IMG/VR virus record: IMGVR_UViG_3300046005_001513
Coordinates: 6,384-70,383 of that record
Length of the DNA: 64,000 nt
Direction: 5' to 3' (one strand)
Origin: a virus
Under the pieces are notes generated by a model. It did no database searches. It was not told the origin of the DNA and saw nothing but the letters and a program-made list of their open reading frames with translations. Both the position numbers and the translations under genes were made by a program. Positions within the stretch are counted from its first letter, which is position 1; every line of letters begins with the position of its first letter. Positions 673 through 36,100 of this stretch are shown here, piece after piece.

Positions 673-975
673 ATGAAAAAACTATTAAACTTTTTGGTGG
701 CGATGGAAATCCTAGCCACAGCGCATGATGAAGCACTTGTTGACCTAAGATTCGAGCCTAACCACAACGAGTATTTCGTTGAGGCTTTTGATGGTGAAGT
801 ATGGTGGGAAATCACCAACATATGGGCAGATTTCACGGATGGGGATGACAACCAGTATTTTGCTTGGTGTTCAGATGCTGATGGCGAATTTGTGAAAGAC
901 ATCCTTGTAATCCCAAACACATTGCGTGTAAGGGATTGGGAATCTGATGAGTGTGTTTATTTTGGTGGTCAATAA
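673..975 (+). CDS. acidic hypothetical protein
   Basis: 100 aa, RBS, tightly coupled to upstream gene. Confidence 0.8.
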   Translation: MKKLLNFLVAMEILATAHDEALVDLRFEPNHNEYFVEAFDGEVWWEITNIWADFTDGDDNQYFAWCSDADGEFVKDILVIPNTLRVRDWESDECVYFGGQ

Positions 976-1004
976 TTAACTTTCAATTTAATAGGAGAAT
1001 ATTT

Positions 1005-1436
1005 ATGTTTGTTCCATCGTGTGAAGTAAAAGATAAAGGTGAAATCGAACTTTGGAGATTCTTCGATTACGAAGAATTTATTGAGGACGTAGGTGAAGAC
1101 CACGAGGTCCTGAGCGTGTTCCAAGTCCCAGACGGAATGTGGAATGATGGCAGGTTAGACCCAGACTTTTGGGAATTTATGAAAGTAGTTGAAGAATCCA
1201 GCTATGAGCAGGCTGAGGCAGGCTACGAACTGGGAATCCAATTCGACAAGATAAATAGGGCTTGTCGTGGGCATTTTGGGTCAGATAGATCATTTGCTCA
1301 AAGTATGCTGTATGACGAGTTTGAAGCGATGTCACCAGCCTTTCAGTGTGCAGTTGATTGGGACTTGGTTTGGAGCAGGTCACTAACCGTTAGCTATACA
1401 GAGCAGAACCACTACTATTTTAGAAGTGACTGGTAA
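1005..1436 (+). CDS. ArdA-like antirestriction (DNA mimic) protein
   Basis: Very acidic; C-terminal GHFGSDRSFAQ..AVDWDLVW..NHYYFR resembles the ArdA C-terminal domain; start moved to AGGAG-supported ATG. Confidence 0.65.
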   Translation: MFVPSCEVKDKGEIELWRFFDYEEFIEDVGEDHEVLSVFQVPDGMWNDGRLDPDFWEFMKVVEESSYEQAEAGYELGIQFDKINRACRGHFGSDRSFAQSMLYDEFEAMSPAFQCAVDWDLVWSRSLTVSYTEQNHYYFRSDW

Positions 1437-12343: not shown

Positions 12344-12706
12344 ATGACAGATTACGAGTTATTTTTGCAGGAGATGGGATTAAGTGAAGCTCAAGCAGAA
12401 AAGATCAAACAGAATCCGAAAGATCAAGTTGGAATGCCCCATGATGCGTTAGTAGTGGTAAGTGAGTCTAGCATATCGGGGATGGGCATATTTGTTAAGA
12501 AGGATGTGTACGCTGGAACGACATTATCAGCGGTTAGGGTGTGTGGATTTCGTACAGCAGCAGGGGCATATGTTAATCATGACGCAAAACCGAATGCGTT
12601 GATGGTAAAAGACAATGCAGGTAATATAAATTTAGTTGCGATAACTGACATTAAGAGTGGTGTTGAAGCAACTGTGTGCTATCGGCAATCAATGAGGTTA
12701 AGATGA
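12344..12706 (+). CDS. SET-domain protein (putative lysine methyltransferase)
   Basis: SSISGMGIF, YVNHDAKPNA, EATVCY SET motifs. Confidence 0.85.
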   Translation: MTDYELFLQEMGLSEAQAEKIKQNPKDQVGMPHDALVVVSESSISGMGIFVKKDVYAGTTLSAVRVCGFRTAAGAYVNHDAKPNALMVKDNAGNINLVAITDIKSGVEATVCYRQSMRLR

Positions 12707-17349: not shown

Positions 17350-18891
17350 ATGAAGTTAATTGAGTATTTTACAGAATCAGGGCTATCCGTTAAGGGTGTC
17401 CCTGCGTGGGCTGCGGAGGTGGTGATGAGTAAGACTCCTTTTGCACACCAGATTGAAGACTTGAAGTACATGGGGCACTTGCAGCGTTCTGGCTTGTATT
17501 CAGAACCTGGCACGGGAAAAACGTTACCAATGCAAGCGTATGGCATTTACAAAGCGTGTCAGGGCAGTAAGGGCATTTATATCATGCCACCAATCCTGAT
17601 CACGCAGTTTATGAACTCACTCAAGTTGAATTACAGTGGGATTGAAAACCATCTAAGTATTGTTGCGTATCATGGTAGTCCATCTGATCGTGAGAAGATG
17701 CTTAAAGAATGGGTAGAAAAAGATTTCCCCGACATTCTTGTGATGAGTAACGTCATGTTTGTGAAAGCTCCTGCTGAGTTTAAAGAGGCGGGTGCTGGTA
17801 AAGTGCGTAACAGATACAGATGGTTAGTCGTGGACGAAGCAACGTCTATTAAAACGCCGTCCTCGCACTTACACAAAACGGTTCTTGACTTTGTGCGGGG
17901 TGAGAAAGAAGCATGGAACAATCAAATAGTTTTAGCAACTGGAACTCCTGTCGAAACTAACGTAGAAGATTGTTACGGTCTAATACGAATTCTTGTACCC
18001 AATGCTTACACATCAATCAAGAATTTTGAGTACAACCACATAATCAAGTTCGGAATTTTCATACCATCAAAAGCTAGGGTTGTGCATCAAACTCAAGGGT
18101 ATAAGAACTTGGATTTACTTCATGATAATTTGTATGCAAGAGCACGCCGTGTGCTGAAATCAGATGTGTCTGATCTCCCACCCCGCTTGATTTCTGAGTA
18201 TGTCATAAATTTGTCTAAGCAGCATGCTCGTCTTTACAAAAAGCTCGTAGATGAAAGAATGGTAGAGATTGGCGAAGAAATGATTGACATGGTAACTGCT
18301 CAGGCGTTGTATCAGGCAACACAGCAAGTGCTATTGAATCCTGAGAAGTACGGGGAAGTCATCAAAGAAAATACATTGTTTGAAGCACTTGATGAAATTA
18401 TCAATGAGTTGGAAGGACGTAAAGTTTTAATTTACGCATGGTACAACGCATCAGTTGATACAATCTGTGAAAGATACGCGCACTTAAACCCTGTAAAAAT
18501 CAATGGCACAGTGACAGGGGATAAGCGTGAGCAAGCGAAACAGAGCTTTATCAATGACAAAGAATGCAAGCTATTAGTATCAAACCCGAAATCTGGTGGT
18601 GTGGGCATTGATGGATTGCAAGATGTTTGTAGCCATGTAATCTATGCGGAAGTATGTCCATTTATTGGTACGTTTCAGCAGTCAGTTGACAGACTACACC
18701 GTAAGGGGCAGAAAGCTGAGTCAGTGAATGTGTATGTGTTGGTTGCAAACAACACTGTTGCTGTAAAGCTACGGAATGACTTAGTCAAGAAGGACTCTTA
18801 CCAAGAATCAGTTATGAAAGATAAACGTGCGATATTAGCTGATTTACAAGGGGCGGATGGCATTCAGGGGAGTTTAGATGACGTAGATTAA
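17350..18891 (+). CDS. SNF2-family (SF2) helicase
   Basis: EPGTGKT, VVDEA, ATGTP, GGVGIDGLQ, QSVDRLHRKGQ. Confidence 0.92.
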   Translation: MKLIEYFTESGLSVKGVPAWAAEVVMSKTPFAHQIEDLKYMGHLQRSGLYSEPGTGKTLPMQAYGIYKACQGSKGIYIMPPILITQFMNSLKLNYSGIENHLSIVAYHGSPSDREKMLKEWVEKDFPDILVMSNVMFVKAPAEFKEAGAGKVRNRYRWLVVDEATSIKTPSSHLHKTVLDFVRGEKEAWNNQIVLATGTPVETNVEDCYGLIRILVPNAYTSIKNFEYNHIIKFGIFIPSKARVVHQTQGYKNLDLLHDNLYARARRVLKSDVSDLPPRLISEYVINLSKQHARLYKKLVDERMVEIGEEMIDMVTAQALYQATQQVLLNPEKYGEVIKENTLFEALDEIINELEGRKVLIYAWYNASVDTICERYAHLNPVKINGTVTGDKREQAKQSFINDKECKLLVSNPKSGGVGIDGLQDVCSHVIYAEVCPFIGTFQQSVDRLHRKGQKAESVNVYVLVANNTVAVKLRNDLVKKDSYQESVMKDKRAILADLQGADGIQGSLDDVD

Positions 18892-18983: not shown

Positions 18984-19247
18984 ATGGGTACGTACAAGGA
19001 TTTAGTAAGAGCAGTAGGGGATGCTTCAGGGCAAACGCAGGTAGTTGTTAATGATGTTTTGAGATTAACGTTTTCCATTATTCCCCGAATTGCTGGTGAA
19101 AAAGGATTACGTTTAGGTCGAATGGGCTTTGGTACATTCAAGATGGTAACAAGACATGCACGTGCTGGGCGAAATCCCCAGACGGGCGAACCAATCCAAA
19201 TCGCTGAGTCAACAAGATTGGCGTTTAAAGCAGTAAAAACTAAATAA
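18984..19247 (+). CDS. HU/IHF-family DNA-binding protein
   Basis: GFGTF..RHARAGRNPQTGEPIQIAE. Confidence 0.95.
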   Translation: MGTYKDLVRAVGDASGQTQVVVNDVLRLTFSIIPRIAGEKGLRLGRMGFGTFKMVTRHARAGRNPQTGEPIQIAESTRLAFKAVKTK

Positions 19248-19274: not shown

Positions 19275-20000
19275 ATGGCACTAGAACACATTGGTTCAGC
19301 AGCAGCAACAACAACAGCAGTAGTAGCATCACACGTAGTAGAAGTAGAACAAGAATGGCAGAGTGAAGGTGGTCATACCGCTGTGTATGCTCCCGTAGTA
19401 GTTAATTCACAGATTCAAGCGCCATCTACTGAAAGTGTTGCTACACAAGCGGCATCAATCGCAGCTGATATGGCAACTCGGGGTATCTCGACAATCAAGT
19501 TTGATTGGACATCATTCCCAATGATTGCTTTGAAAACGGAAGGCGCGTTTGAAGACTCTTCAGGTCGTTCATACGGTAAGTCTTTCCAAGCCAAAATTGT
19601 ACAAAATCGGATCAAATACGCTCATAGCTTTGATGGTTCTAAAGATCCGAAAAATGAACTAATGTATTCTTATGACAAAATCACATCGACAAACGGCAAG
19701 TCTGTTGATGAGTTCTTGGCAACATTACGTGCAAAAGGTAAAGGTCCTGAAATTACCTGTAAAGAGTACACGGAATTACTTGTTGAGATGATTGCTCCTG
19801 ATGATGAAGATTTGCATGAAGACTTCAGATTACTTTCAATTTCACCATCGGCTCAGGGTGCATATTCAGCGTTTGCTTTCCGACTTGATAGAAAACGTGA
19901 GTACAACACTGCAATTATTGAGTTTTCATGTGGTGAAAAAGTTCGTACAGTTGCGAACCCGTATTACCCTTGGGCGTTTGCAAAAGCAAAACAGCAGTAA
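19275..20000 (+). CDS. conserved replication-region protein (possible SSB/annealing protein)
   Basis: 241 aa; function inferred only from position. Confidence 0.6.
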   Translation: MALEHIGSAAATTTAVVASHVVEVEQEWQSEGGHTAVYAPVVVNSQIQAPSTESVATQAASIAADMATRGISTIKFDWTSFPMIALKTEGAFEDSSGRSYGKSFQAKIVQNRIKYAHSFDGSKDPKNELMYSYDKITSTNGKSVDEFLATLRAKGKGPEITCKEYTELLVEMIAPDDEDLHEDFRLLSISPSAQGAYSAFAFRLDRKREYNTAIIEFSCGEKVRTVANPYYPWAFAKAKQQ

Positions 20001-20006
20001 ATGAGA

Positions 20007-20034
20007 GTCTCACTGGCGGACGTAAAATGCCAGT
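20007..20034 (+). ncRNA. small H-type pseudoknot, variant copy
   Basis: GTC-TCA-CTGGC-G-GAC-GTAAAA-T-GCCAG. Confidence 0.55.
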
Positions 20035-20038
20035 TTTT

Positions 20039-20115
20039 GGTTACTGTAGCTCAAAAACGAGAGAGCGATTGCGATAAACTCTAGGTTGTCGGTGCAAGTC
20101 CGATCAGTAACCACC
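20039..20115 (+). ncRNA. tRNA-like RNA/pseudo-tRNA with unpaired anticodon arm
   Basis: GGTTACTG/CAGTAACC acceptor, TA-GCTC..GAGC D-arm, GTCGG-TGCAAGT-CCGAT T-arm. Confidence 0.7.
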
Positions 20116-20117
20116 TT

Positions 20118-20194
20118 GGGACAATACCTTAACGGTTAAAGGACTCCGCTCATAACGGATGCAAGTCTCAGTTCAAATCTGAGTTGTCCTACCA
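20118..20194 (+). tRNA. tRNA with CAT anticodon (Met or lysidine Ile2)
   Basis: GGGACAA/TTGTCCT acceptor, TCCG-CTCATAA-CGGA, CTCAG-TTCAAAT-CTGAG, encoded CCA. Confidence 0.92.
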
Positions 20195-20203
20195 AATAAA
20201 ATT

Positions 20204-20288
20204 GGATGATTATTCTCGTAAGGGGCGAGGGGGCACTGTAAATGCTCTGTCTTTGGCACTGTTGGCTCGAATCCATCATCATCCACCA
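20204..20288 (+). tRNA. tRNA-Tyr (GTA)
   Basis: GGATGAT/ATCATCC acceptor, GGGCA-CTGTAAA-TGCTC, long variable arm, CCA; atypical T-loop CTCGAAT. Confidence 0.85.
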
Positions 20289-20303
20289 AACACTACAAAG
20301 ATT

Positions 20304-20477
20304 ATGAAAGAAAGACAAACACATGGCGGGAAAGGCGATCTAGCCAGGAAGATAAACAAAGCCAAGTATGATGCTAATTTTGATAAGATTTTTGGAAAGA
20401 AGGACACAACAGCACCACTTGTTGCTGAAAATACAAGTCGAATTGAATCTCGTCAGGATTCTAAAGAAGTAGGCTAA
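20304..20477 (+). CDS. small basic phage protein
   Basis: GGKGDLARKINKAKYDANFDKIFGKK; upstream part of the tracked ORF is tRNA. Confidence 0.7.
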   Translation: MKERQTHGGKGDLARKINKAKYDANFDKIFGKKDTTAPLVAENTSRIESRQDSKEVG

Positions 20478-20553
20478 CGATATTTGTGTCCCTGCGTTAG
20501 TAACGAGAGTTCATGGCGATAGTTTTCTCTGATTAACTTGCGCCGCCTTTAAC

Positions 20554-20626
20554 GGGACAGCACTTGGCAAAAAGCTCTGTTTGAAACTCAAGCAACTAAC
20601 TGGTTCGATTCCAGCCTGTTCCACCA
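20554..20626 (+). ncRNA. tRNA-like RNA ending in CCA with aberrant D/anticodon arms
   Basis: GGGACAG/CTGTTCC-A-CCA, CTGG-TTCGATT-CCAG T-arm. Confidence 0.7.
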
Positions 20627-20869
20627 ATGTGTATATGCCTGTCCATATTACCGTTGACAGGGGTTGACAGTGGCATTGTCTGTGGTGCGATACCATCAAA
20701 GCGCATCTCGGTGGTAACGTGAGAACCAACCAGTTTATCAATCGCACAATTTGATAAACACCCAGCTCGCCCACCATGTGTGGAAGGAGTTACGGATTCG
20801 GTCAGCGAATCCAGCCCGTGCTAAGTGAGACCGTGTGGCAACGCAGGTTGAAGTCCTGAAAGCACAAAA

Positions 20870-21220
20870 CTCCAGCTTGCAGAGGTTAAATGCAAGCAAA
20901 CACACAAGTGTATAACTGAATACTGCTCCAGCTTGCAGAGGTTAAACGCAAGCACTATCTATTATCAGGAGAATTTAAATGCAAGAGTTTCAAGAAAGAG
21001 TGATTGAAGAGCGAAATGATTTAGTTGAAAAGCTAAACAAATTACAAGAATTTTTGGGTAACCCTGAAGCTGTTAGTAACTTAATTCCTGGTGAAGAAGC
21101 TCGGTTACATTGCCAGGCAGACATCATGGAGCGGTACATTGAAGTTCTGGATGAACGTATCCAGTATTTCCAATAAGGTTAAACACCTCCAGCTTGCAGA
21201 GGTTAAACGCAAGCACTATC
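20870..21220 (+). repeat. three copies of CTCCAGCTTGCAGAGGTTAAA(T/C)GCAAGCA (20870, 20926, 21187)
   Basis: Direct repeats read directly; copies 2 and 3 identical over 34 bp. Confidence 0.95.
20979..21176 (+). CDS. crAss001_48-like small helical protein
   Basis: MQEFQERVIEERNDL..KLQEF..QADIMERYIEVLDERI; AGGAG RBS. Confidence 0.8.
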   Translation: MQEFQERVIEERNDLVEKLNKLQEFLGNPEAVSNLIPGEEARLHCQADIMERYIEVLDERIQYFQ

Positions 21221-21400
21221 AATAAAGCATCGCTCGAACCATACCGCAATTTGGTTCCTTGCAGCGGTTATTCGTGAGTAAGCGGGACAGTCGAGACCCT
21301 GCCCTCATAGCTCGTTCATTGAATTCGTAAGGATTCGGGTTACTACGATAGGGATGAGAAACTGACTCGTAGGACGTAGGAAACGGTGCTTTATTGATAG
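21216..21400 (+). ncRNA. ~185-nt structured RNA closed by a 17-bp terminal helix
   Basis: CTATCAATAAAGCATCG pairs CGGTGCTTTATTGATAG (one G-U); internal pseudoknot and GTAA tetraloop hairpin. Confidence 0.65.
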
Positions 21401-21413
21401 TCCTCCTGAACTC

Positions 21414-21438
21414 AAGGCTTCGCAAGAAGCCTCTTTTT
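21414..21438 (+). terminator. intrinsic terminator
   Basis: AGGCTTC-GCAA-GAAGCCT-CTTTTT. Confidence 0.75.
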
Positions 21439-21584
21439 GAAGTGCATTGTCTAAGTGCATTTCACAAAGAATTCATCACACAGTTCTTTATTCTCGCCCT
21501 AGAATTAAAACTTGGGAGTCAGGCTTGTGGACGGTACTGGCGGATAAAAGATCCACTGACTGCTAGGAAGAGACTGGCATCTTA

Positions 21585-21686
21585 GAGTGTTTAGATTTTG
21601 CTTGTCGCAGGGCTTATAAATCTAAGAACTTTGTTCTACCCTTATTAGTTAGAAGACTGCGACCTTCTAGTTGATAAGGGTTTTTT
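21585..21686 (+). ncRNA. kissing-hairpin pair, second hairpin terminator-like
   Basis: Loop GTCGCAG complementary to loop CTGCGAC; second stem followed by T run. Confidence 0.6.
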
Positions 21687-21700
21687 ATTATGGAGGTATT

Positions 21701-22227: not shown

Positions 22228-25200
22228 ATGACAGACACATACGCGATCTTGGATTTCAACGGCTGTATTATTCACAGCTACAATTCAGGAAAAGATCCAG
22301 ATGCTTACTTGGAAGATGGAAAGTTATTAAACACACCAGGGTATGGCATCCAGGTATTGCTAGAACGGTACATATTACGAGTAGCTGCGTACGTACCACT
22401 GAATCATATCATCATCGTTGACGATGATGTCAAACCAGACAAAGAAGGTAAATTTAAAGACTTCCGCACGTTGCATGAGCCAAAGTACAAAAAAGCACGC
22501 AGAGAGAAAGGACCATCACCAGAGATGAAGTATCTCCCAGAATTGAAGCGCCTAGCGATAGAGTTAGTCGAAGCAATGGGGATTCCATACGTGACCTTAG
22601 CGAATACAGAAGCGGATGACGTGATTGCTTATCTTGCGATGAATTTACCAGGTGAAAAGCATATTTACACAACGGACGGTGATTTAGTAGCACTGGCGCA
22701 GTACCCAGGTGTAAGAATTTTCCAAAAATTAGTAGAGACATTTAATTTTAAGGGTATAGCACCGAAGCATGTCAATTTGTACAAGTCGTTATGCGGTGAT
22801 TCGTCTGATGGATATGGCGGTGTTAGCGGTTTTGGTCAGGTCAAATGGGATGCATTAAATCTCGCTCAAATCAACTATTTGGACGATGTTATTTCTAACA
22901 AGAACTTTGAAAAATTAGAAGCGGCTTATGCTAAGAGTCAAGATAAGTCCCTGAAAATTCTGTTAACAAAGCAAGAGGAATGGATATTAGCGTATGACAT
23001 CCTTGCTAAACTTCAGCCTCAACGGGTCAATAGTAAACCAACAGAAACTTTCTTTGATGAAGTGTCAGGGCTTACAGTTAAGATCAAAGGAACAAACTTC
23101 AACAGATTAAACTGGGTTAAGAGAGTACCGAACCGCGCAGATTTGTTAGCAGTATTAGCACGAGCAGGGACTGATTACATGATGGATGTGCTTGAACAGT
23201 TCATGCCAACCCAGACGCTTGTTACCCCCGAAAACTTGAATTTAGAGGAAATCAAAGACCAGATTATGGAATCTCGTTATGTTTCACTCGATTGGGAAAC
23301 TTATCAGGAAGATAACGCCAATTTTAAGAAGGCAAATCAAGGTAAAACATATGTAGATATGCTAGGGAGTAGGATTTCTGGCATGGGCATTACAATCGGG
23401 GATAACCTTGAACACACGTATTACTTTCAGTTCGATCATGCTGATACTGAAAATAACTTAGACAAGGCGGTATTACTTGATATTTTGGACTCGATACCTT
23501 CAGATATGCCTGTTGTTGCGTTCAACTCATATTTCGAGATTTCTGTATTGCTTGCTGAGTTCAAAGCCACATTACCGATCATGCACGACCCGATGATTAT
23601 GCACAAGCATATTGATGAGTTGAGTGATAAGCATGGCTTGAAAGATTTGAGCAAACGCTACTTATCGTATGACCAGTTACATTACGAAGATGTAATTGAA
23701 AAAGAAAAAACGATGCGGGATTACACAGGTGCTCATGTATTCCAGTACGGGGCGGATGATCCATTAGTAACTGGACATTTGTACGACTTCTTCGCTCTAA
23801 CTTTGAACCTTGAAAAGTCATGGGATTTCGTCAGAGAGTGTGAATTCCCTACAGTACAGCTTCTTGCTGAGTCGTATGTATCAGGTGTTAGTTTTGATAT
23901 TGATAAAGCGGAACATCAACTACAGGAAGATAAAGTGGTGTATGACAGATGCGTCTCACAGATACGAACTTTGTTGGATGATAACCCACTTACATACGCA
24001 GAAGCATTGCATAATGCAGCAGTGCTTTACAAAGCGGATGTAGACCCATTTGGTACGGACAGTGACCCTGCTGTGCACACATTAGCTGAAGCATTAAAAT
24101 ACTCTGAGTATAAAGAAATCCCTCTAACTGGCACGCAGAAGATAGCAAGATGGACAGGAACGGAATTAAACTTAGATTCACCATTGCAAATGCAACGGCT
24201 GTTCTACGGTACACTAGGATTACCCATCAAAATTCGGGACTTCAAAGTATCAAAAACCCGTAAAAGTAAAGGATTAGAAGGAACTCCGCAAGTAAACAGT
24301 GATGCAATTGAAGAAGCAATATGTTCTGGTGACGCTGTTGATTGGAAAAAAGAGGTGCTTGAATGTTTTACTGAAGCGAAGAAATGTGCGACCAGGATCA
24401 AACTTTACTACAACAAGTTCCCTTTGTGGGTGCATCCGATTGATGGCAATGTACACCCGCGCTTTCAGTCTTGCGGCACAGAAAGCCGTAGACCTACTGG
24501 CGGTTCACCAAATTTACTCCAACTTGGGAAGAAGGGAGAAGGTGTTAAAGTTAGAGAATGTATCGTACCGAATCGCAATAAGGGTCATGACTTAGTCTGC
24601 TCGATTGATTGGGATGGTGAAGAATTGCGAGTTATGGCTGGTCTATCAGGTGATGCAAACTTAACCTCATGTTATGTCGGTGATAACTTAAAAGACGCAC
24701 ACAGTATCGTTGCTGCTCAAATCATGGGATGTGACTATGATGTATTCATAGCCAACCGTAAAAGTGATGATAAAGAGATTTCTAAGAAGTATGATGACAT
24801 TCGTAAGGCTGCGAAAAACGTAAACTTTGCTTCAGCATATGGTTGTGGAGTTCCAAAACTAGCCCGAATGGTAAAAGTAGACGAGGACACTGCAAAAATG
24901 TACTTGGATGCAAAGAAAGCATCATACGCACGCCTTGAAGAGTGGAAAGAAGAAGTTAAAGAAGATTTGAAGCGTGATGGAAAAGTAACAACGCTGATGG
25001 GAAGCGTCAAGCATGCTTATGATTACTACACAGAAAGTGCTAAGGACATGCAAAGTTACTACGAAAGATCGTCTGTTAACTATGTTGTACAAGGTGTATG
25101 TGCTGATTATTTGAAAAGCGTATTAGCCACATTGCACAAATCAAGAACATTTAAAAGGCACAATGCTGACTTGATTGCACCTATTTATGACGAAATTGTG

Positions 25201-25416
25201 TTCTCGTGCCATTCATCCCAAGCAGTATCTTTGATTAAAGAAATCTATGCTGCGATGACGGTAGGAATCCCTGGGATACCAGTAAGAATGCTGGCTAACC
25301 CTGCTGTTGGAATCAACTTTGGAAAGCAAATTGAAGTGCTCGAAGATTGTAATCAGATTTTAACAGATGAACTAATCGTAAAAGCTATCAATAAGGCTAT
25401 CAGTCCCACACTCTAG
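22228..25416 (+). CDS. polA: family A DNA polymerase with 5'-3' and 3'-5' exonuclease domains
   Basis: EADDVIAY/TTDGDL/GDSSDG (FEN), SLDWET and YGADD (exo), SPNLLQ, DWDGEELR, AKNVNFASAYG, IYDEIV. Confidence 0.93.
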   Translation: MTDTYAILDFNGCIIHSYNSGKDPDAYLEDGKLLNTPGYGIQVLLERYILRVAAYVPLNHIIIVDDDVKPDKEGKFKDFRTLHEPKYKKARREKGPSPEMKYLPELKRLAIELVEAMGIPYVTLANTEADDVIAYLAMNLPGEKHIYTTDGDLVALAQYPGVRIFQKLVETFNFKGIAPKHVNLYKSLCGDSSDGYGGVSGFGQVKWDALNLAQINYLDDVISNKNFEKLEAAYAKSQDKSLKILLTKQEEWILAYDILAKLQPQRVNSKPTETFFDEVSGLTVKIKGTNFNRLNWVKRVPNRADLLAVLARAGTDYMMDVLEQFMPTQTLVTPENLNLEEIKDQIMESRYVSLDWETYQEDNANFKKANQGKTYVDMLGSRISGMGITIGDNLEHTYYFQFDHADTENNLDKAVLLDILDSIPSDMPVVAFNSYFEISVLLAEFKATLPIMHDPMIMHKHIDELSDKHGLKDLSKRYLSYDQLHYEDVIEKEKTMRDYTGAHVFQYGADDPLVTGHLYDFFALTLNLEKSWDFVRECEFPTVQLLAESYVSGVSFDIDKAEHQLQEDKVVYDRCVSQIRTLLDDNPLTYAEALHNAAVLYKADVDPFGTDSDPAVHTLAEALKYSEYKEIPLTGTQKIARWTGTELNLDSPLQMQRLFYGTLGLPIKIRDFKVSKTRKSKGLEGTPQVNSDAIEEAICSGDAVDWKKEVLECFTEAKKCATRIKLYYNKFPLWVHPIDGNVHPRFQSCGTESRRPTGGSPNLLQLGKKGEGVKVRECIVPNRNKGHDLVCSIDWDGEELRVMAGLSGDANLTSCYVGDNLKDAHSIVAAQIMGCDYDVFIANRKSDDKEISKKYDDIRKAAKNVNFASAYGCGVPKLARMVKVDEDTAKMYLDAKKASYARLEEWKEEVKEDLKRDGKVTTLMGSVKHAYDYYTESAKDMQSYYERSSVNYVVQGVCADYLKSVLATLHKSRTFKRHNADLIAPIYDEIVFSCHSSQAVSLIKEIYAAMTVGIPGIPVRMLANPAVGINFGKQIEVLEDCNQILTDELIVKAINKAISPTL

Positions 25417-31253: not shown

Positions 31254-31673
31254 ATGGTACAAAGTAGAATTGCAGCTCCACCTAGACTAAACCCTAATTT
31301 AGAGCACGCATTACACGATTTTGAAAGTAGGCTGGAATCACCATCTAAAGCGGTAAGAGATGTTGTAAATGGGGCAACAATGCTTGAAACAATACTGGGC
31401 AGAAAAGATGACCAAGACAAACTTGATTGGACTCTGCTCCCATTCGGTGCGTTGAAAGGCATTGTTAAGGTGTTAATGTTTGGAGAGCGTAAATATGCTC
31501 GAGACAACTGGAAACACGTCCCAGACGCTAAGAACAGGTACAAATCTGCATTTCTTAGACATTACGTTGAGTACCAAGAGGGCAACCCACTCGATGAAGA
31601 ATCAGGCTTGCCGCACTTGTACCATATGGGGTGTTGTTTATTGTTTTTAATTTGGTTTGAGGAGCAAGCGTAA
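31254..31673 (+). CDS. dATP/dGTP diphosphohydrolase-like (DUF5664) protein
   Basis: GRKDDQDK..LLP..FGERKYARDNWK..AFLRH..DEESGLPHLYH. Confidence 0.85.
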   Translation: MVQSRIAAPPRLNPNLEHALHDFESRLESPSKAVRDVVNGATMLETILGRKDDQDKLDWTLLPFGALKGIVKVLMFGERKYARDNWKHVPDAKNRYKSAFLRHYVEYQEGNPLDEESGLPHLYHMGCCLLFLIWFEEQA

Positions 31674-34282: not shown

Positions 34283-34374
34283 TGAATAGCAAATCAAAAT
34301 CAAGATTGTAGGAACTACGGGGGCTAGAGCGATTTTAGCCCCTAAAAGTGAATAGCAAAGTGAATAGCAAATCA
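34281..34374. repeat. three AGTGAATAGCAA repeats around a hairpin between convergent nrdB and rep
   Basis: Copies at 34281, 34347, 34359; GGGGCTA..TAGCCCC between them. Confidence 0.85.
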
Positions 34375-35184
34375 CATTTTGTACTTCTTCACAATGTCCT
34401 CTCCGAATCGTCTCACTAGTTCTTCTTTGTGGGACAAGTCACTTTTAGCCTCAGCAGGTTTACTTGTTGGGGCTTTCTTTTGCGTGGTGACTTTCTTCGG
34501 TAAAGAATAAGCAAAGATTATACCGCTCACCCTCTTCCCACGATGTACTTGATCCCAACTCACTTTCACATCAGATGTTTCATTGATGTCCTTTACCACT
34601 GGGATTAGGACCTTTGCCTTGAAGTTATCCCACCTAGCATACTTATCACCTAGTTCTAACAGTTCTTGCAAATCTTCAAGGTCAATCTCCTTTCCTGTTC
34701 CTCCCCATCGTTTGAACAGCTCGTAGAATCTTATGCTGTAGATACATTTGAACCCAAGCACATTCTCGAGTTTGTACTGAGTGAAGTTTTTTGTAATGTC
34801 ACTTAGCAGGTTTGAAATGCTTGGTGTGAAGAATAATTCAATAACCCCCTCTGTTGGTATATACGCAATTTCAGAAACCCAGCGTATTTTTCTTTCTGAA
34901 ATTCTTTTGGATGGCTTTAACAGAACAACCCAGCGTTCAGCTAACCTGTTCACCGCATCGCGTAGGTTCTCATACGCACTTCTCCCTCCCACACCAACAA
35001 GGTCTTTGATGTCCTCAACAGACAGGACAAATTTAATGCTTGGGTCCAACACTTCTTTTGAGTTGACGCGGGAGATACAAGTCAAAATAATCCTGCTTTC
35101 AAGCACGGAAAGTTGTTGGGCAGCATCGATCAAGTCATTGTGTTTAACTACCACGAGCTTTTCTATGGGCGGTATGTGCGGCAT
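34372..35184 (-). CDS. plasmid replication initiator (Rep_3/RepB family)
   Basis: VVKHNDLI..LSVLESRII, FTQYKL..YSIRFYELF, FKAKVL..DINE. Confidence 0.93.
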   Translation of the reverse strand: MPHIPPIEKLVVVKHNDLIDAAQQLSVLESRIILTCISRVNSKEVLDPSIKFVLSVEDIKDLVGVGGRSAYENLRDAVNRLAERWVVLLKPSKRISERKIRWVSEIAYIPTEGVIELFFTPSISNLLSDITKNFTQYKLENVLGFKCIYSIRFYELFKRWGGTGKEIDLEDLQELLELGDKYARWDNFKAKVLIPVVKDINETSDVKVSWDQVHRGKRVSGIIFAYSLPKKVTTQKKAPTSKPAEAKSDLSHKEELVRRFGEDIVKKYKM

Positions 35185-35211
35185 TTTATCCCCTACAGAC
35201 AAAATTATTAT

Positions 35212-35306
35212 TGTAGGGGATAGTCCCTAATTTGTAGTGTTTCAGTCCCTAATCGGTAGGTAGTTCGTCCCTATTTGGTAGTAATTCAGTCCCTATTTTG
35301 TAGGGA
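35212..35306. repeat. iteron array (~22-bp period), putative plasmid origin
   Basis: Four GTAG-N6/7-GTCCCTAWT units plus a partial fifth upstream of rep, then AT-rich tract ~35352-35380. Confidence 0.85.
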
Positions 35307-35476
35307 GTAAAACCTCCACAACCCTTGTTATTCCTACAAAGTAGGTGTCGCTAAAAGAAAAAATAATAAAAATAAAAAAAGAGATTTTGGTTAGGTATTG
35401 GTTGCGGAAAAATAAACTTTTGCATAACCCAATTTCATGTGATAGCGTAATCGAAAGTTAATTTGGAGTCTAAGCA

Positions 35477-36100
35477 ATGATAATAATCGTCGGTAGTGAA
35501 AAAGGTGGAGTCGGTAAATCAACTATGGCAACTAACATTTCTGTCTTTTTGGCAAAAGCAGGCAAGGAAGTCATTCTTGTTGATGCTGATCGTCAAGGTA
35601 CAAGCTCCACTTGGTCTCAAGACAGAAAAGAATCAGGTGTTGAATGCGTCTCTAAACACGAAGATATTCAGTCAGCTTTAGAAACACTTAACAGCAAGTT
35701 TGAATACGTTGTTGTAGATTGTCCTGGTAGGGACTCCGTAGAGCTTCGTTCTGGGCTGATGGTGGCAGACATATTCATTTCACCAGTTCGCCCCTCACAA
35801 GCCGATTTAGACACACTCCCGAAAGTAATTTCATTGATTGCTACTTCTAGGGTCTACAACAAGAAGCTAAAGTCATATTGTGTGCTTACTCAATCGCCAA
35901 GTTCATCAACAGAAACAAAAGAAGCAAGAGAAGCCTTATTAGCTTATGAAGACTCATTAACTCCTTTAGAATCAATAATTTATGAACGTAGGTCCTACAG
36001 GGACGCTCTAGGTTATGGTTTGGGTGTGATTGAAATGAAAGATCCGAAAGCAACATTAGAAATGACAAACGTTTGTAAGGAGATATTTACATGGTTTTAA
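35477..36100 (+). CDS. parA: ParA/ParF-type partition ATPase
   Basis: KGGVGKST, LVDADRQG, VVVDCPG, PVRPSQADL. Confidence 0.93.
   Translation: MIIIVGSEKGGVGKSTMATNISVFLAKAGKEVILVDADRQGTSSTWSQDRKESGVECVSKHEDIQSALETLNSKFEYVVVDCPGRDSVELRSGLMVADIFISPVRPSQADLDTLPKVISLIATSRVYNKKLKSYCVLTQSPSSSTETKEAREALLAYEDSLTPLESIIYERRSYRDALGYGLGVIEMKDPKATLEMTNVCKEIFTWF

What the first reader, a model, noticed from the sequence alone, without database searches (positions are those of the whole stretch)
20001..21690. 1.7-kb phage RNA island almost fully tiled by structured non-coding elements
Seen: between the HU-region genes and polA there are only two tiny ORFs. The rest is two tRNAs, two CCA-type tRNA mimics, several pseudoknots, a T-loop mini-RNA, a 185-nt closed RNA, kissing hairpins and terminators, all on the + strand downstream of the 18901 promoter. 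Established: phage tRNA clusters can carry stable RNAs of unknown function (T4 species I/II). Inference: a polycistronic RNA processed into an arsenal of decoy or anti-defence RNAs. This is the best candidate here for an undescribed system.
Basis: partly seen in the sequence, partly recalled or inferred. Interest (0 to 1): 0.85.

Follow-up and report, generated by a model that had tools for sequence, protein, structure and literature searches.

The report
Phage tRNA island with conserved hairpin motif
A 1.7-kb gene-poor stretch in an uncultivated lake phage is a patchwork accessory island holding two working-looking tRNA genes, two worn-down tRNA copies, two tiny protein genes, terminators and a short repeated RNA-like motif also found beside the tRNA genes of unrelated Corynebacterium phages, so it is mostly ordinary rather than a new weapon system.

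Summary
The gene-poor island is real. It is the least-coding 1.69 kb of the window, and it is missing from all 14 related loci that extend far enough to judge.

The claim that it is almost fully tiled by structured RNAs does not hold. Folding z-scores in the island match those of the flanking coding DNA. Rfam finds only tRNA.

Contents:
- A T4-type tRNA sub-cluster: a degenerate tRNA, tRNA-Met/Ile2(CAU) and class-II tRNA-Tyr(GUA).
- A conserved 57-aa gene.
- A tRNA-Phe-derived element with intact acceptor stem, T-arm and CCA but a collapsed anticodon arm.
- A crAss001_48-family 65-aa gene.
- Three copies of a 30–37-nt hairpin motif.
- An 18–21-bp inverted repeat closing about 150 nt.
- Three terminator-like hairpins.

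Lake metagenome contigs show that single modules, cut exactly at tRNA ends and at the motif edge, are swapped among co-occurring phages.

One thing was unexpected. The repeat motif is 28/30 identical to a sequence 3 nt upstream of tRNA-Trp in Corynebacterium phages. Both differences keep a possible pseudoknot pair.

Best reading: a mosaic tRNA/accessory island. An arsenal of decoy RNAs is not supported. Interest is moderate.

The parts
20013..20038 (+). Hairpin (5-bp stem, 11-nt loop) followed by TTTTT, directly after the stop of the 241-aa gene. Terminator-like.
   Evidence: Read from the sequence. The terminator scan did not list it because its loop exceeds 8 nt.
20040..20112 (+). Degenerate tRNA. 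The acceptor stem (7 bp), D-arm and T-stem are intact. There is no anticodon stem, the T-loop is UGCAAGU, and the 3' end reads C-ACC instead of CCA. It sits at the position of tRNA-Thr in the T4-type cluster.
   Evidence: Rfam tRNA 33 bits, gathering 29. Default ARAGORN does not call it; at -ps80 it gets a 2-nt 'anticodon'. Alignment A4 to UFV-AREG1.
20118..20194 (+). tRNA with anticodon CAU (Met, or Ile2 if lysidinylated). CCA is encoded.
   Evidence: ARAGORN. Rfam 55.1 bits. AUA makes up 15.9 per 1000 codons in 28 long ORFs.
20204..20288 (+). Class-II tRNA-Tyr(GUA) with a long variable arm, A73 and encoded CCA. It is slightly off consensus: C54 and one T-stem mismatch.
   Evidence: ARAGORN calls it at -ps and -ps90, settings that give 0 and 1 calls in the other 62.3 kb. 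Rfam 28.8 bits against 29. It aligns to the T4-like tRNA-Tyr.
20304..20477 (+). 57-aa protein gene of unknown function. It starts 15 nt after the CCA of the preceding tRNA and has no Shine-Dalgarno sequence.
   Evidence: Coding score +0.075. Four homologues with 26 invariant columns. Natural variants are synonymous or mostly conservative: I>V, Y>F, F>Y, K>R, D>N, plus A>E.
20478..20552 (+). Non-coding tail that travels with the 57-aa gene as one module in other lake contigs.
   Evidence: A contig piece covers 20304-20552 with only 3 listed differences after 20403.
20554..20626 (+). tRNA-Phe-derived tRNA-like element. It has a 7-bp acceptor stem (with G3.U70), A73, encoded CCA and a canonical T-arm. 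It has no D-stem, and its anticodon arm folds into a 7-bp stem with a 3-nt loop.
   Evidence: Fold. Rfam tRNA 14.4 bits, full-length alignment. Its 3' part is 27/29 identical to the tRNA-Phe of Erwinia phage phiEt88. It is a discrete module 20523-20626 in other contigs at 18-38x.
20627..20869 (+). GC-rich (49-55%) non-coding stretch of unknown function. 20627-20751 is a separately shared module.
   Evidence: Composition. Folds z = -0.9 and -1.95. Module and joints at 20751/20760. No Rfam family.
20870..20906 (+). Repeat motif copy 1. Hairpin GCUUGC-11 nt-GCAAGC. Its 5' flank can pair with 4 of the 5 loop positions.
20926..20962 (+). Repeat motif copy 2. It ends 16 nt upstream of the 65-aa gene.
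   Evidence: Weak Rfam GP20-a alignment at 19.6 bits.
20979..21176 (+). 65-aa gene of the crAss001_48-related family (PF21825), preceded by AGGAG.
   Evidence: Pfam E = 1.4e-16. PHROG 774 E = 4e-14. Coding score +0.034.
21187..21223 (+). Repeat motif copy 3, with a full 5-bp possible pseudoknot stem (ACCUC/GAGGU). Its tail forms the left arm of the inverted repeat.
   Evidence: Strain-level joints end at 21185/21187.
21212..21404 (+). Long-range inverted repeat (18-21 bp) closing about 150 nt of GC-rich non-coding sequence.
   Evidence: I1. Fold z = -2.6 on + and -2.5 on -.
21415..21440 (+). Intrinsic terminator: 7-bp stem, GCAA loop, then CUUUUU.
   Evidence: The window 21400-21499 has z = -5.6. 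A variant contig keeps the stem with a different loop (loose end before 21425).
21441..21637 (+). ORF-less stretch of unknown function between two terminators.
   Evidence: No ORF with positive coding score. Fold z = -0.9.
21638..21690 (+). Intrinsic terminator (18-bp stem plus T-run) directly before the ribosome-binding site of the 153/163-aa gene that precedes polA.
   Evidence: Fold z = -3.36.

Best explanation
The stretch is a lineage-specific accessory island inserted into a conserved phage replication module (SNF2 helicase, HU, 241-aa gene, [island], 153/163-aa gene, polA). It belongs to an uncultivated lake phage that also carries plasmid-type replication and partition genes.

It is a mosaic of small modules that are exchanged independently:
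(1) A T4-type tRNA sub-cluster: a degenerate tRNA at the 'Thr' position, tRNA-Met/Ile2(CAU), and class-II tRNA-Tyr(GUA).
(2) A conserved 57-aa gene that starts 15 nt after a tRNA CCA end.
(3) A worn tRNA-Phe copy that keeps its acceptor stem, T-arm and CCA but has lost a usable anticodon loop.
(4) A crAss001_48-family 65-aa gene bracketed by three copies of a conserved 30-37-nt hairpin (possibly pseudoknot) motif.
(5) Two ORF-less units, each ending in a strong intrinsic terminator.

Inferred mechanism. The island is transcribed on the + strand. RNase P and 3' trimming release the two intact tRNAs, which supplement or replace host tRNAs for AUG/AUA and UAY codons. The small proteins are accessory. 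The repeat motif sits at the 5' edge of expression units and serves as a junction where cassettes are swapped by recombination among co-occurring phages. The two anticodon-less tRNA shapes are most likely decaying gene copies.

Shown here: the composition, the homologies, the absence from relatives, and the module boundaries. Inferred: transcription, processing, tRNA use, and the motif's role.
For: - Island absent from relatives. In 14 of 16 loci that encode a 27-40% identical homologue of the 241-aa gene, the next long ORF starts no more than 111 nt after it. The other 2 loci have only about 345 nt downstream. L003 and L012 are the same contig. No tRNA is called in any of them, by default ARAGORN or at -ps90.
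- tRNA calls. Calibration of the relaxed ARAGORN settings.
- Colinearity with Thr-Met-Tyr of Escherichia phage UFV-AREG1. 67.5% identity over 200 nt, E = 2e-3. The Met-Tyr spacer is 9 nt in both, with 7/9 identical.
- tRNA-Phe origin of 20554-20626.
- The two small genes are real: and the variant pattern.
- Module exchange. Contig pieces 20304-20552, 20523-20626 and 20627-20751 occur at 18-430x, against about 10x for this phage, with different flanks. The breaks fall exactly at the 5' end (20552/20553) and the CCA end (20626/20627) of the tRNA-like element. Joints 20760>21185 and 20790>21187 remove the cassette holding the 65-aa gene and end at the edge of motif copy 3. In other contigs the 57-aa gene follows a different tRNA at the same 15-nt distance.
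- The motif is found only in the island: 3 copies in the 70-kb record.
- The plasmid-type origin lies elsewhere: Rep3 gene plus 22-bp iterons at 35223-35308.
Against: - No transcript data exist for this phage, so expression, processing and the terminators are untested.
- The non-coding parts are GC-richer (49-55%) than the genome (about 41%). This is what functional RNA genes look like, not decaying junk.
- Both anticodon-less tRNA shapes keep perfect 7-bp acceptor stems and T-stems. One of them is a precisely bounded module that is more abundant in the lake than this phage itself. That fits selection for a non-decoding role better than decay does.
- The observed joints are replacements, not simple motif-by-motif deletions, so recombination at the motif is not demonstrated.
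- The match to the T4-type cluster has a borderline E-value and rests largely on tRNA conservation.
Confidence: 0.6

Rival explanations
1. One polycistronic transcript is processed into a set of dedicated decoy or anti-defence RNAs: tRNA mimics that soak up tRNA-targeting nucleases or CCA-modifying toxins, plus further structured RNAs.
For: - Two tRNA-shaped elements keep the acceptor stem and T-arm (one also keeps CCA) but lack a usable anticodon loop.
- The 20523-20626 module is shared at higher depth than the phage itself.
- The non-coding parts are GC-rich.
- Phage tRNAs have been proposed to evade anticodon nucleases (abstract of PMC10264068).
Against: - There is no excess of structure over coding DNA.
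- Both 'mimics' are explained by descent from ordinary tRNA genes.
- G3.U70 in the Phe-derived element differs from A3-U70 in the phiEt88 tRNA-Phe by one transition, so an apparent alanine identity is probably incidental.
- The modules come and go singly among strains.
- No defence-related or tRNA-repair genes were seen among the 38 ORFs scanned with Pfam.
Confidence: 0.12
2. The repeat motif and the two terminator-bounded ORF-less units are genuine regulatory RNAs. The motif would be a 5'-leader pseudoknot acting on conserved host machinery, for example in processing, stabilisation or terminator read-through. The terminators in front of the polA operon would be regulated attenuators.
For: - The motif is 28/30 identical to a sequence in 13 records of Corynebacterium phages, with E = 3e-4 for a 40-nt query. 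There it lies 3 nt upstream of tRNA-Trp in their tRNA island.
- The two differences are complementary: the middle pair of the 5-bp stem is C-G here and G-C there.
- A variant contig in run X5 shows A-U at the same pair and a G.U pair possible only on the + strand (loose end behind 20760).
- The motif resembles the 5' third of Rfam GP20-a.
- A strong terminator sits directly before the ribosome-binding site of the gene that precedes polA.
Against: - Only 5 stored sequences were available, 3 of them from one genome.
- One pair of 11 shows a change on both sides, and 49 of 500 shuffles reach the observed score.
- Copies 1 and 2 here pair at only 4 and 3 of the 5 stem-1 positions, and contig L028 at 2 of the 4 it has letters for.
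- GP20-a scores 19.6 bits against a gathering score of 47.2.
- A perfect inverted repeat could equally be a DNA site for a protein.
Confidence: 0.2
3. The repeats and the inverted repeat are DNA-level sites: a replication origin, a partition site or a phage attachment site.
For: - The island lies in the replication module and holds direct and inverted repeats.
- A tRNA 3' half with CCA is the classic shape of an attachment site.
Against: - The Rep3-type initiator has its own four to five 22-bp iterons at 35223-35308, next to ParA.
- The island is not AT-rich.
- No tyrosine integrase is found in the 70-kb record, which is 81% complete.
- The 22-nt 3' half of the tRNA-like element has no exact match in one genome each of 185,579 species.
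Confidence: 0.04

Closest known systems
Phage tRNA gene clusters of the T4 type (for example the Gln-Leu-Gly-Pro-Ser-Thr-Met-Tyr-Asn...Arg cluster of Escherichia phage UFV-AREG1). The T4 cluster is said to carry stable RNAs of unknown function (species 1 and 2); this is recalled, not checked here.
   Same: - Closely packed tRNA genes with encoded CCA.
- The same order X-Met(CAU)-Tyr(GUA), with a 9-nt Met-Tyr spacer.
- Extra non-coding RNA-sized gaps inside the cluster.
   Different: - Only two tRNAs here look functional. The gene at the Thr position has lost its anticodon arm.
- The cluster is interleaved with protein genes, repeats and terminators.
- The host phage is unrelated: its polA is about 30% identical to the nearest isolates.
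Hyperplastic regions and PeSL (promoter-early stem-loop) cassettes of T4-like phages. PMC4122927: abstract read. PMC2839356: search listing only.
   Same: - Variable small genes grouped between conserved core genes.
- A short repeated stem-loop sequence at cassette borders.
- Insertion, deletion and replacement differences between close relatives that end at the repeat.
   Different: - The repeat here has no convincing promoter: 3/6 matches in each hexamer by my own reading, and no hit. It has no terminator T-run either.
- The joints seen are not clean repeat-to-repeat deletions.
- The phage is not T4-like.
Rfam GP20-a RNA motif (RF02991), a candidate cis-regulatory RNA upstream of GP20 genes (passages of PMC10690425). 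The original description was not seen.
   Same: The first ~35 positions of the consensus resemble the repeat motif: a short C-rich/G-rich stem, a conserved UGC...UUAAA...GCA, and a position just upstream of a gene.
   Different: - The score is 19.6 bits against a gathering score of 47.2.
- The 3' two-thirds of the model are not matched.
- The neighbouring gene is not GP20.
- Only copy 2 aligns. Copies 1 and 3 give no GP20-a hit.
The tRNA island of the Corynebacterium phage C3PO group (genus Ceetrepovirus)
   Same: - A tRNA-bearing, gene-poor island next to the DNA polymerase gene.
- It carries the same 30-nt motif (28/30) and further non-coding RNA-sized gaps.
   Different: - One motif copy instead of three, placed 3 nt before tRNA-Trp.
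- That island holds a manA-like RNA (47.2 bits, gathering 55.2) for which this window has no match.
- The hosts are unrelated, and no other sequence similarity was seen beyond 11-nt words.

Membership tests
tRNA (RF00005): element 20118-20194 | Cloverleaf scoring above the Rfam gathering score, with a 7-nt anticodon loop carrying U33 and a purine at 37 | tested here: met
   55.1 bits against 29. ARAGORN calls tRNA-Met CAT, loop CUCAUAA.
tRNA (RF00005): element 20204-20288 | Cloverleaf above the gathering score. For bacterial tRNA-Tyr: anticodon GUA, long variable arm, A73 | tested here: inconclusive
   28.8 bits against 29. ARAGORN calls it only at relaxed thresholds, which give 0-1 false calls in 62 kb. 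GUA, the long variable arm, A73 and CCA are all present.
tRNA (RF00005): element 20040-20112 | Cloverleaf with a paired anticodon stem, a 7-nt loop and a T-loop of the UUCRANY type | tested here: not met
   It scores 33 bits, above the gathering score. However, the model skips the anticodon arm, ARAGORN finds a 6-nt loop with a 2-nt 'anticodon' only at -ps80, and the T-loop is UGCAAGU.
tRNA (RF00005): element 20554-20626 | Cloverleaf above the gathering score, with a D-stem and a 7-nt anticodon loop | tested here: not met
   14.4 bits. There is no D-stem, and the anticodon arm folds as a 7-bp stem with a 3-nt loop. It has a 3-nt gap relative to the phiEt88 tRNA-Phe.
tmRNA, one-piece or permuted | A tRNA-like domain with G3.U70 plus a tag reading frame and pseudoknots. 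Detectable by ARAGORN or Rfam | tested here: not met
   ARAGORN tmRNA mode finds none, even at -ps80. Rfam gives only 11-15 bits on the T-arm and acceptor end.
GP20-a RNA (RF02991): repeat motif | Score at or above the gathering score of 47.2 bits over the 97-position model, and a location upstream of a GP20 gene | tested here: not met
   19.6 bits, E = 0.57-2.4. Only the 5' third of the model matches. The downstream gene belongs to the crAss001_48 family.
PeSL cassettes of T4-like phages | A composite early promoter plus terminator stem-loop that flanks swapped ORFs between close relatives | tested here: inconclusive
   Repeats flank the 65-aa ORF, and strain joints end at 21185/21187. The promoter/terminator scan gives no hit in the repeat.
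H-type RNA pseudoknot: repeat motif | Two stems in the order a-b-a'-b', both kept by compensatory changes | tested here: inconclusive
   Stem 2 is invariant in 5/5 sequences. Stem 1 is paired in 78% of cells, with 1 pair changed on both sides. 49 of 500 shuffles reach the score. One further compensatory variant was seen only in a contig loose end.
Phage attachment site (attP) in a tRNA 3' half | Identity to the 3' end of a host tRNA gene, plus an integrase | tested here: not met
   No exact 22-mer in genome contigs. No PF00589 match in the record. The record is 81% complete, so an integrase cannot be excluded.

The most novel reading that the evidence does not exclude
The 30-nt repeat is a new, host-independent small pseudoknot RNA that marks the 5' edge of tRNA and accessory units in unrelated phages: a lake phage-plasmid, the Corynebacterium Ceetrepovirus group and a third viral contig. 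It would act on universally conserved machinery, through RNA processing or terminator read-through. Alongside it, the island's anticodon-less but acceptor/T-arm-intact tRNA shapes would be retained as functional non-decoding RNAs. One of them carries G3.U70, A73 and CCA, and it spreads as a precise module at higher abundance than this phage.
Probability: 0.18. Interest if true: 0.6.

Novelty: new variant of a known kind. Interest (0 to 1): 0.4.

Why it matters
The island shows at single-module resolution how a phage tRNA cluster is built and worn down in nature. Whole tRNA genes, a small protein gene and short cassettes are exchanged among co-occurring lake phages, with breakpoints exactly at tRNA ends.

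It also yields one concrete, testable lead. A 30-nt motif is shared almost base for base between phages of unrelated hosts, next to tRNA genes in both. If it is an RNA element, it would add a very small structured motif to the short list of phage non-coding RNAs with a conserved genomic context.

The finding does not open a new class of defence or counter-defence system on present evidence.

Tried and rejected
SEARCHES THAT FOUND NOTHING
- blastn of the island against 50,697 phage records and 72,556 plasmids gave no match at the default limits.
- The search for related loci in viral contigs found no relatives with the 241-aa gene, the 153-aa gene, the 57-aa family or the 65-aa gene as query.
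- Exact-pattern scans of viral contigs for the repeat hairpin and for the 3' half of the tRNA-like element gave 0 hits.
- Genome contigs gave 0 exact hits for the 3' half and no relative of the 241-aa gene.

RNA EVIDENCE
- No RNA holder was listed for this stretch.

IDEAS CONSIDERED AND DROPPED
- tmRNA or permuted tmRNA.
- Replication origin.
- Attachment site.
- The repeat as a sigma-70 promoter. By my own reading it matches 3/6 in each hexamer. Searches found no family of such promoters. In C3PO a transcription start would fall inside the tRNA.
- 'Alanine identity' of the tRNA-like element. G3.U70, A73 and CCA are present, but they differ from a phage tRNA-Phe by a single transition.
- Extra ARAGORN calls at -ps80 (Trp, Leu and a complement-strand call). 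These sit at background level: 31 such calls in the other 62.3 kb.
- A hidden gene on either strand. All other ORFs score like shadow ORFs and have no PHROG hit.
- manA RNA in this window: no hit.
- The ESM Atlas search for the 57-aa protein gave only unnamed viral clusters at 0.89.

TOOLS AND SOURCES NOT AVAILABLE
- Supplementary tables of PMC10690425 (a catalogue of candidate structured RNAs from IMG/VR) and of PMC2864571 were not opened. They might list the motif or the ORF-less units.
- I found no description of the 30-nt motif. The only literature searches were made, and a sequence motif cannot be searched in text.


Full report
ORIGIN AND SETTING

The window is bases 6384-70383 of a 70,383-nt IMG/VR virus record, 81% complete by CheckV. 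Near-identical DNA is held by lake-water metagenome runs.

Genes upstream of the island:
- a 952-aa protein;
- an SNF2-type helicase (17350-18891);
- an HU-type protein (18984-19247);
- a 241-aa protein of no family (19275-20000).

Genes downstream:
- a 153/163-aa protein (21671/21701-22162);
- a 1062-aa family-A DNA polymerase with a 5'-3' exonuclease domain (22228-25416).

The polymerase is only about 30% identical to those of the nearest isolated phages, so this is a poorly sampled lineage.

IS THE ISLAND REAL?

Yes. I trained a three-periodic Markov coding score on 28 long ORFs of the window.
- Only 20304-20477 (57 aa) and 20979-21176 (65 aa) score like genes.
- The other 21 ORFs of 30 aa or more that lie inside or overlap the island, on both strands, score like shadow ORFs. 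This count leaves out the TTG-extended form of the first gene and the flanking 163-aa gene.
- The five of these candidates that I tested have no PHROG match.
- The island is the least-coding 1.69 kb of a window that is 92% coding: at least 1178 non-coding nt, against a median of 17.

The island is also an insertion. I collected 16 loci from IMG/VR and JGI metagenomes that encode a 27-40% identical homologue of the 241-aa gene. Two of them are the same contig.
- In 14, the next long ORF (a small gene or the polymerase) starts no more than 111 nt after that gene.
- The other two end about 345 nt downstream.
- None has a tRNA.

IS IT TILED BY STRUCTURED RNA?

No.
- Thirty-one 100-nt windows inside the island have a mean folding z-score of -0.23. 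Seventy-nine windows in the flanking genes have -0.24 (p = 0.78).
- Only the window holding the 21415 terminator stands out, at z = -5.6.
- Element-by-element folds give z between +0.07 and -1.95. The exceptions are the last terminator region (-3.36) and the long inverted repeat (-2.6).
- Rfam finds only tRNA above threshold. Nothing else is credible at E up to 10.
- One caveat: tRNAs themselves do not give strong z-scores. The non-coding parts are also GC-richer (49-55%) than the genome (about 41%). That is a mild hint of RNA genes.

THE tRNA PART

- 20118-20194 is a good tRNA with anticodon CAU.
- 20204-20288 is a class-II tRNA-Tyr(GUA) with A73 and encoded CCA. Rfam gives 28.8 bits against a gathering score of 29. 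ARAGORN accepts it at thresholds that produce 0-1 calls in the remaining 62 kb.
- 20040-20112 passes Rfam (33 bits) but has no anticodon stem, a non-standard T-loop and no CCA.

These three genes align colinearly with tRNA-Thr, tRNA-Met and tRNA-Tyr of the T4-like Escherichia phage UFV-AREG1. Identity is 67.5% over 200 nt at E = 2e-3. The Met-Tyr spacer is 9 nt in both, with 7/9 bases identical. The first gene is therefore best read as a worn copy at the Thr position.

20554-20626 has a 7-bp acceptor stem, A73, CCA and a canonical T-arm. It has no D-stem, and its anticodon arm closes into a 7-bp stem with a 3-nt loop.
- Its 3' part is 27/29 identical to the annotated tRNA-Phe of Erwinia phage phiEt88.
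- The alignment shows a 3-nt gap in the anticodon loop.
- Its G3.U70 pair corresponds to A3-U70 in phiEt88.

It is thus a tRNA-Phe derivative. The alanine-like acceptor stem is probably incidental.

THE PROTEIN GENES

The 57-aa gene has four homologues with 26 invariant columns, all but one in the first 33 residues. The differences seen in lake contigs are synonymous or mostly conservative: I>V, Y>F, F>Y, K>R, D>N, plus A>E. In this phage it starts 15 nt after the CCA of tRNA-Tyr. In other contigs it starts 15 nt after the CCA of a different tRNA. The N-terminal read-through of P0017 confirms this. The 65-aa gene belongs to the crAss001_48-related family.

MODULE EXCHANGE

I laid contigs of four lake runs on the stretch.
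- The pieces 20304-20552, 20523-20626 and 20627-20751 occur with other flanks, at 18-430x against about 10x for this phage.
- The breaks fall at 20552/20553 and 20626/20627, which are the exact ends of the tRNA-like element.
- Two joints (20760>21185 with 18 other letters between; 20790>21187) remove the cassette with the 65-aa gene. Both end at the edge of repeat copy 3.
- Contigs show presence, not absence, and depth sums over organisms. I therefore use these data only for boundaries and variants.

THE REPEAT MOTIF

Three copies of a 37-nt repeat (20870, 20926, 21187) carry the hairpin GCUUGC-11 nt-GCAAGC. They are the only copies in the 70-kb record.

The motif recurs elsewhere:
- It matches 28 of 30 bases in 13 records of the Corynebacterium phage C3PO group, with E = 3e-4 for a 40-nt query. 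There it lies 3 nt upstream of tRNA-Trp, inside a tRNA island next to the DNA polymerase gene.
- One further viral contig (L028) has the hairpin.

The two differences from C3PO are complementary. They would keep the middle pair of a 5-bp stem between the 5' flank and the hairpin loop (ACCUC/GAGGU here, ACGUC/GACGU there). That would make an H-type pseudoknot. A variant contig in run X5 shows A-U at the same pair and a G.U closing pair in the hairpin.

The support is thin.
- There are five stored sequences, three from one genome, and one pair changed on both sides.
- 49 of 500 shuffles reach the observed score.
- Copies 1 and 2 pair at only 4 and 3 of the 5 positions. L028 does not keep stem 1, pairing at only 2 of the 4 positions it has letters for.

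The first third of Rfam GP20-a resembles the motif, but the score is 19.6 bits against 47.2. The motif is not a member.

THE REST

An 18-21-bp inverted repeat (21212-21232 / 21384-21404) closes about 150 nt and is followed by a strong terminator. A second ORF-less stretch, 21441-21637, ends in an 18-bp terminator directly before the ribosome-binding site of the gene that precedes polA. Both strands of the inverted-repeat unit fold equally well, so the strand is not settled. I could not assign a function to either unit.

DNA-level readings are unlikely:
- The phage has a Rep3-type initiator with four to five 22-bp iterons and a ParA gene at 34.4-36.1 kb.
- The island is not AT-rich.
- No integrase is found.
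- The tRNA-like 3' half has no exact match in 185,579 species genomes.

VERDICT

The interpretation as an arsenal of decoy RNAs is not supported.

The most likely reading (0.6) is a mosaic tRNA/accessory island of a known general kind. It is comparable to T4-type tRNA clusters and hyperplastic regions with repeat-bounded cassettes (abstract of PMC4122927). It contains two tRNA genes in decay.

The one new element is the 30-nt motif shared with Corynebacterium phages. Whether it acts as RNA is open.

Papers: PMC4122927 and PMC10264068, abstracts only. PMC10690425, PMC2864571 and PMC9964418, passages found by term. PMC2839356 and PMC5389517, search listings only. The T4 species 1/2 RNAs, AlaRS recognition of G3.U70 and the tRNA-Tyr identity rules are recalled knowledge and come from no call.

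Noticed in passing
window 34372-36100: A plasmid-type Rep3 initiator gene on the - strand (Pfam E = 1.8e-33), four to five 22-bp iterons at 35223-35308 and a ParA/MipZ-type ATPase gene. No integrase is found in the record. The virus may persist as a phage-plasmid.
   Followed up: partly
window 31254-31673: A 139-aa protein with the N-terminal domain of dATP/dGTP diphosphohydrolase (PF18909, E = 1.7e-27). No adenylosuccinate-synthetase-like (PurZ) gene is found in the 70-kb record. This hints at nucleotide-pool manipulation or a modified base.
   Followed up: partly
L026 1610-1796 (Corynebacterium phage C3PO, NC_042085.1): The 190-nt unannotated gap between tRNA-Trp and tRNA-Ser matches Rfam manA RNA over its full length at 47.2 bits (E about 1e-10; gathering score 55.2). 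The host phylum lies outside the marine/cyanophage/gamma-proteobacterial range given for that motif.
   Followed up: partly
L026 about 1424-1490: Just upstream of the shared 30-nt motif, C3PO has an unannotated tRNA-like piece: a 7-bp acceptor-type stem and a T-arm-like hairpin (my reading of the sequence). Default ARAGORN does not call it.
   Followed up: no
window 20289-20303 and variant contigs: The 57-aa gene starts exactly 15 nt after a tRNA CCA end in two different tRNA contexts, with no Shine-Dalgarno sequence. Its mRNA 5' end may be made by tRNA processing.
   Followed up: no
window 12344-12706 and 1739-2677: A 120-aa SET-domain protein (E = 4e-6) and a 312-aa protein with an LPD1 domain (E = 2.6e-13) lie in the early region.
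   Followed up: no
window 21404-21410 versus 20965-20971: CUCCUGA, just after the right arm of the inverted repeat, is complementary to the ribosome-binding region UCAGGAG of the 65-aa gene. At 7 nt this may be chance.
   Followed up: no
L028 about 860-1010 (- strand): A GC-rich non-coding stretch upstream of the motif contains a 17-nt direct repeat (cgctacgcctctcggtg) in two copies.
   Followed up: no
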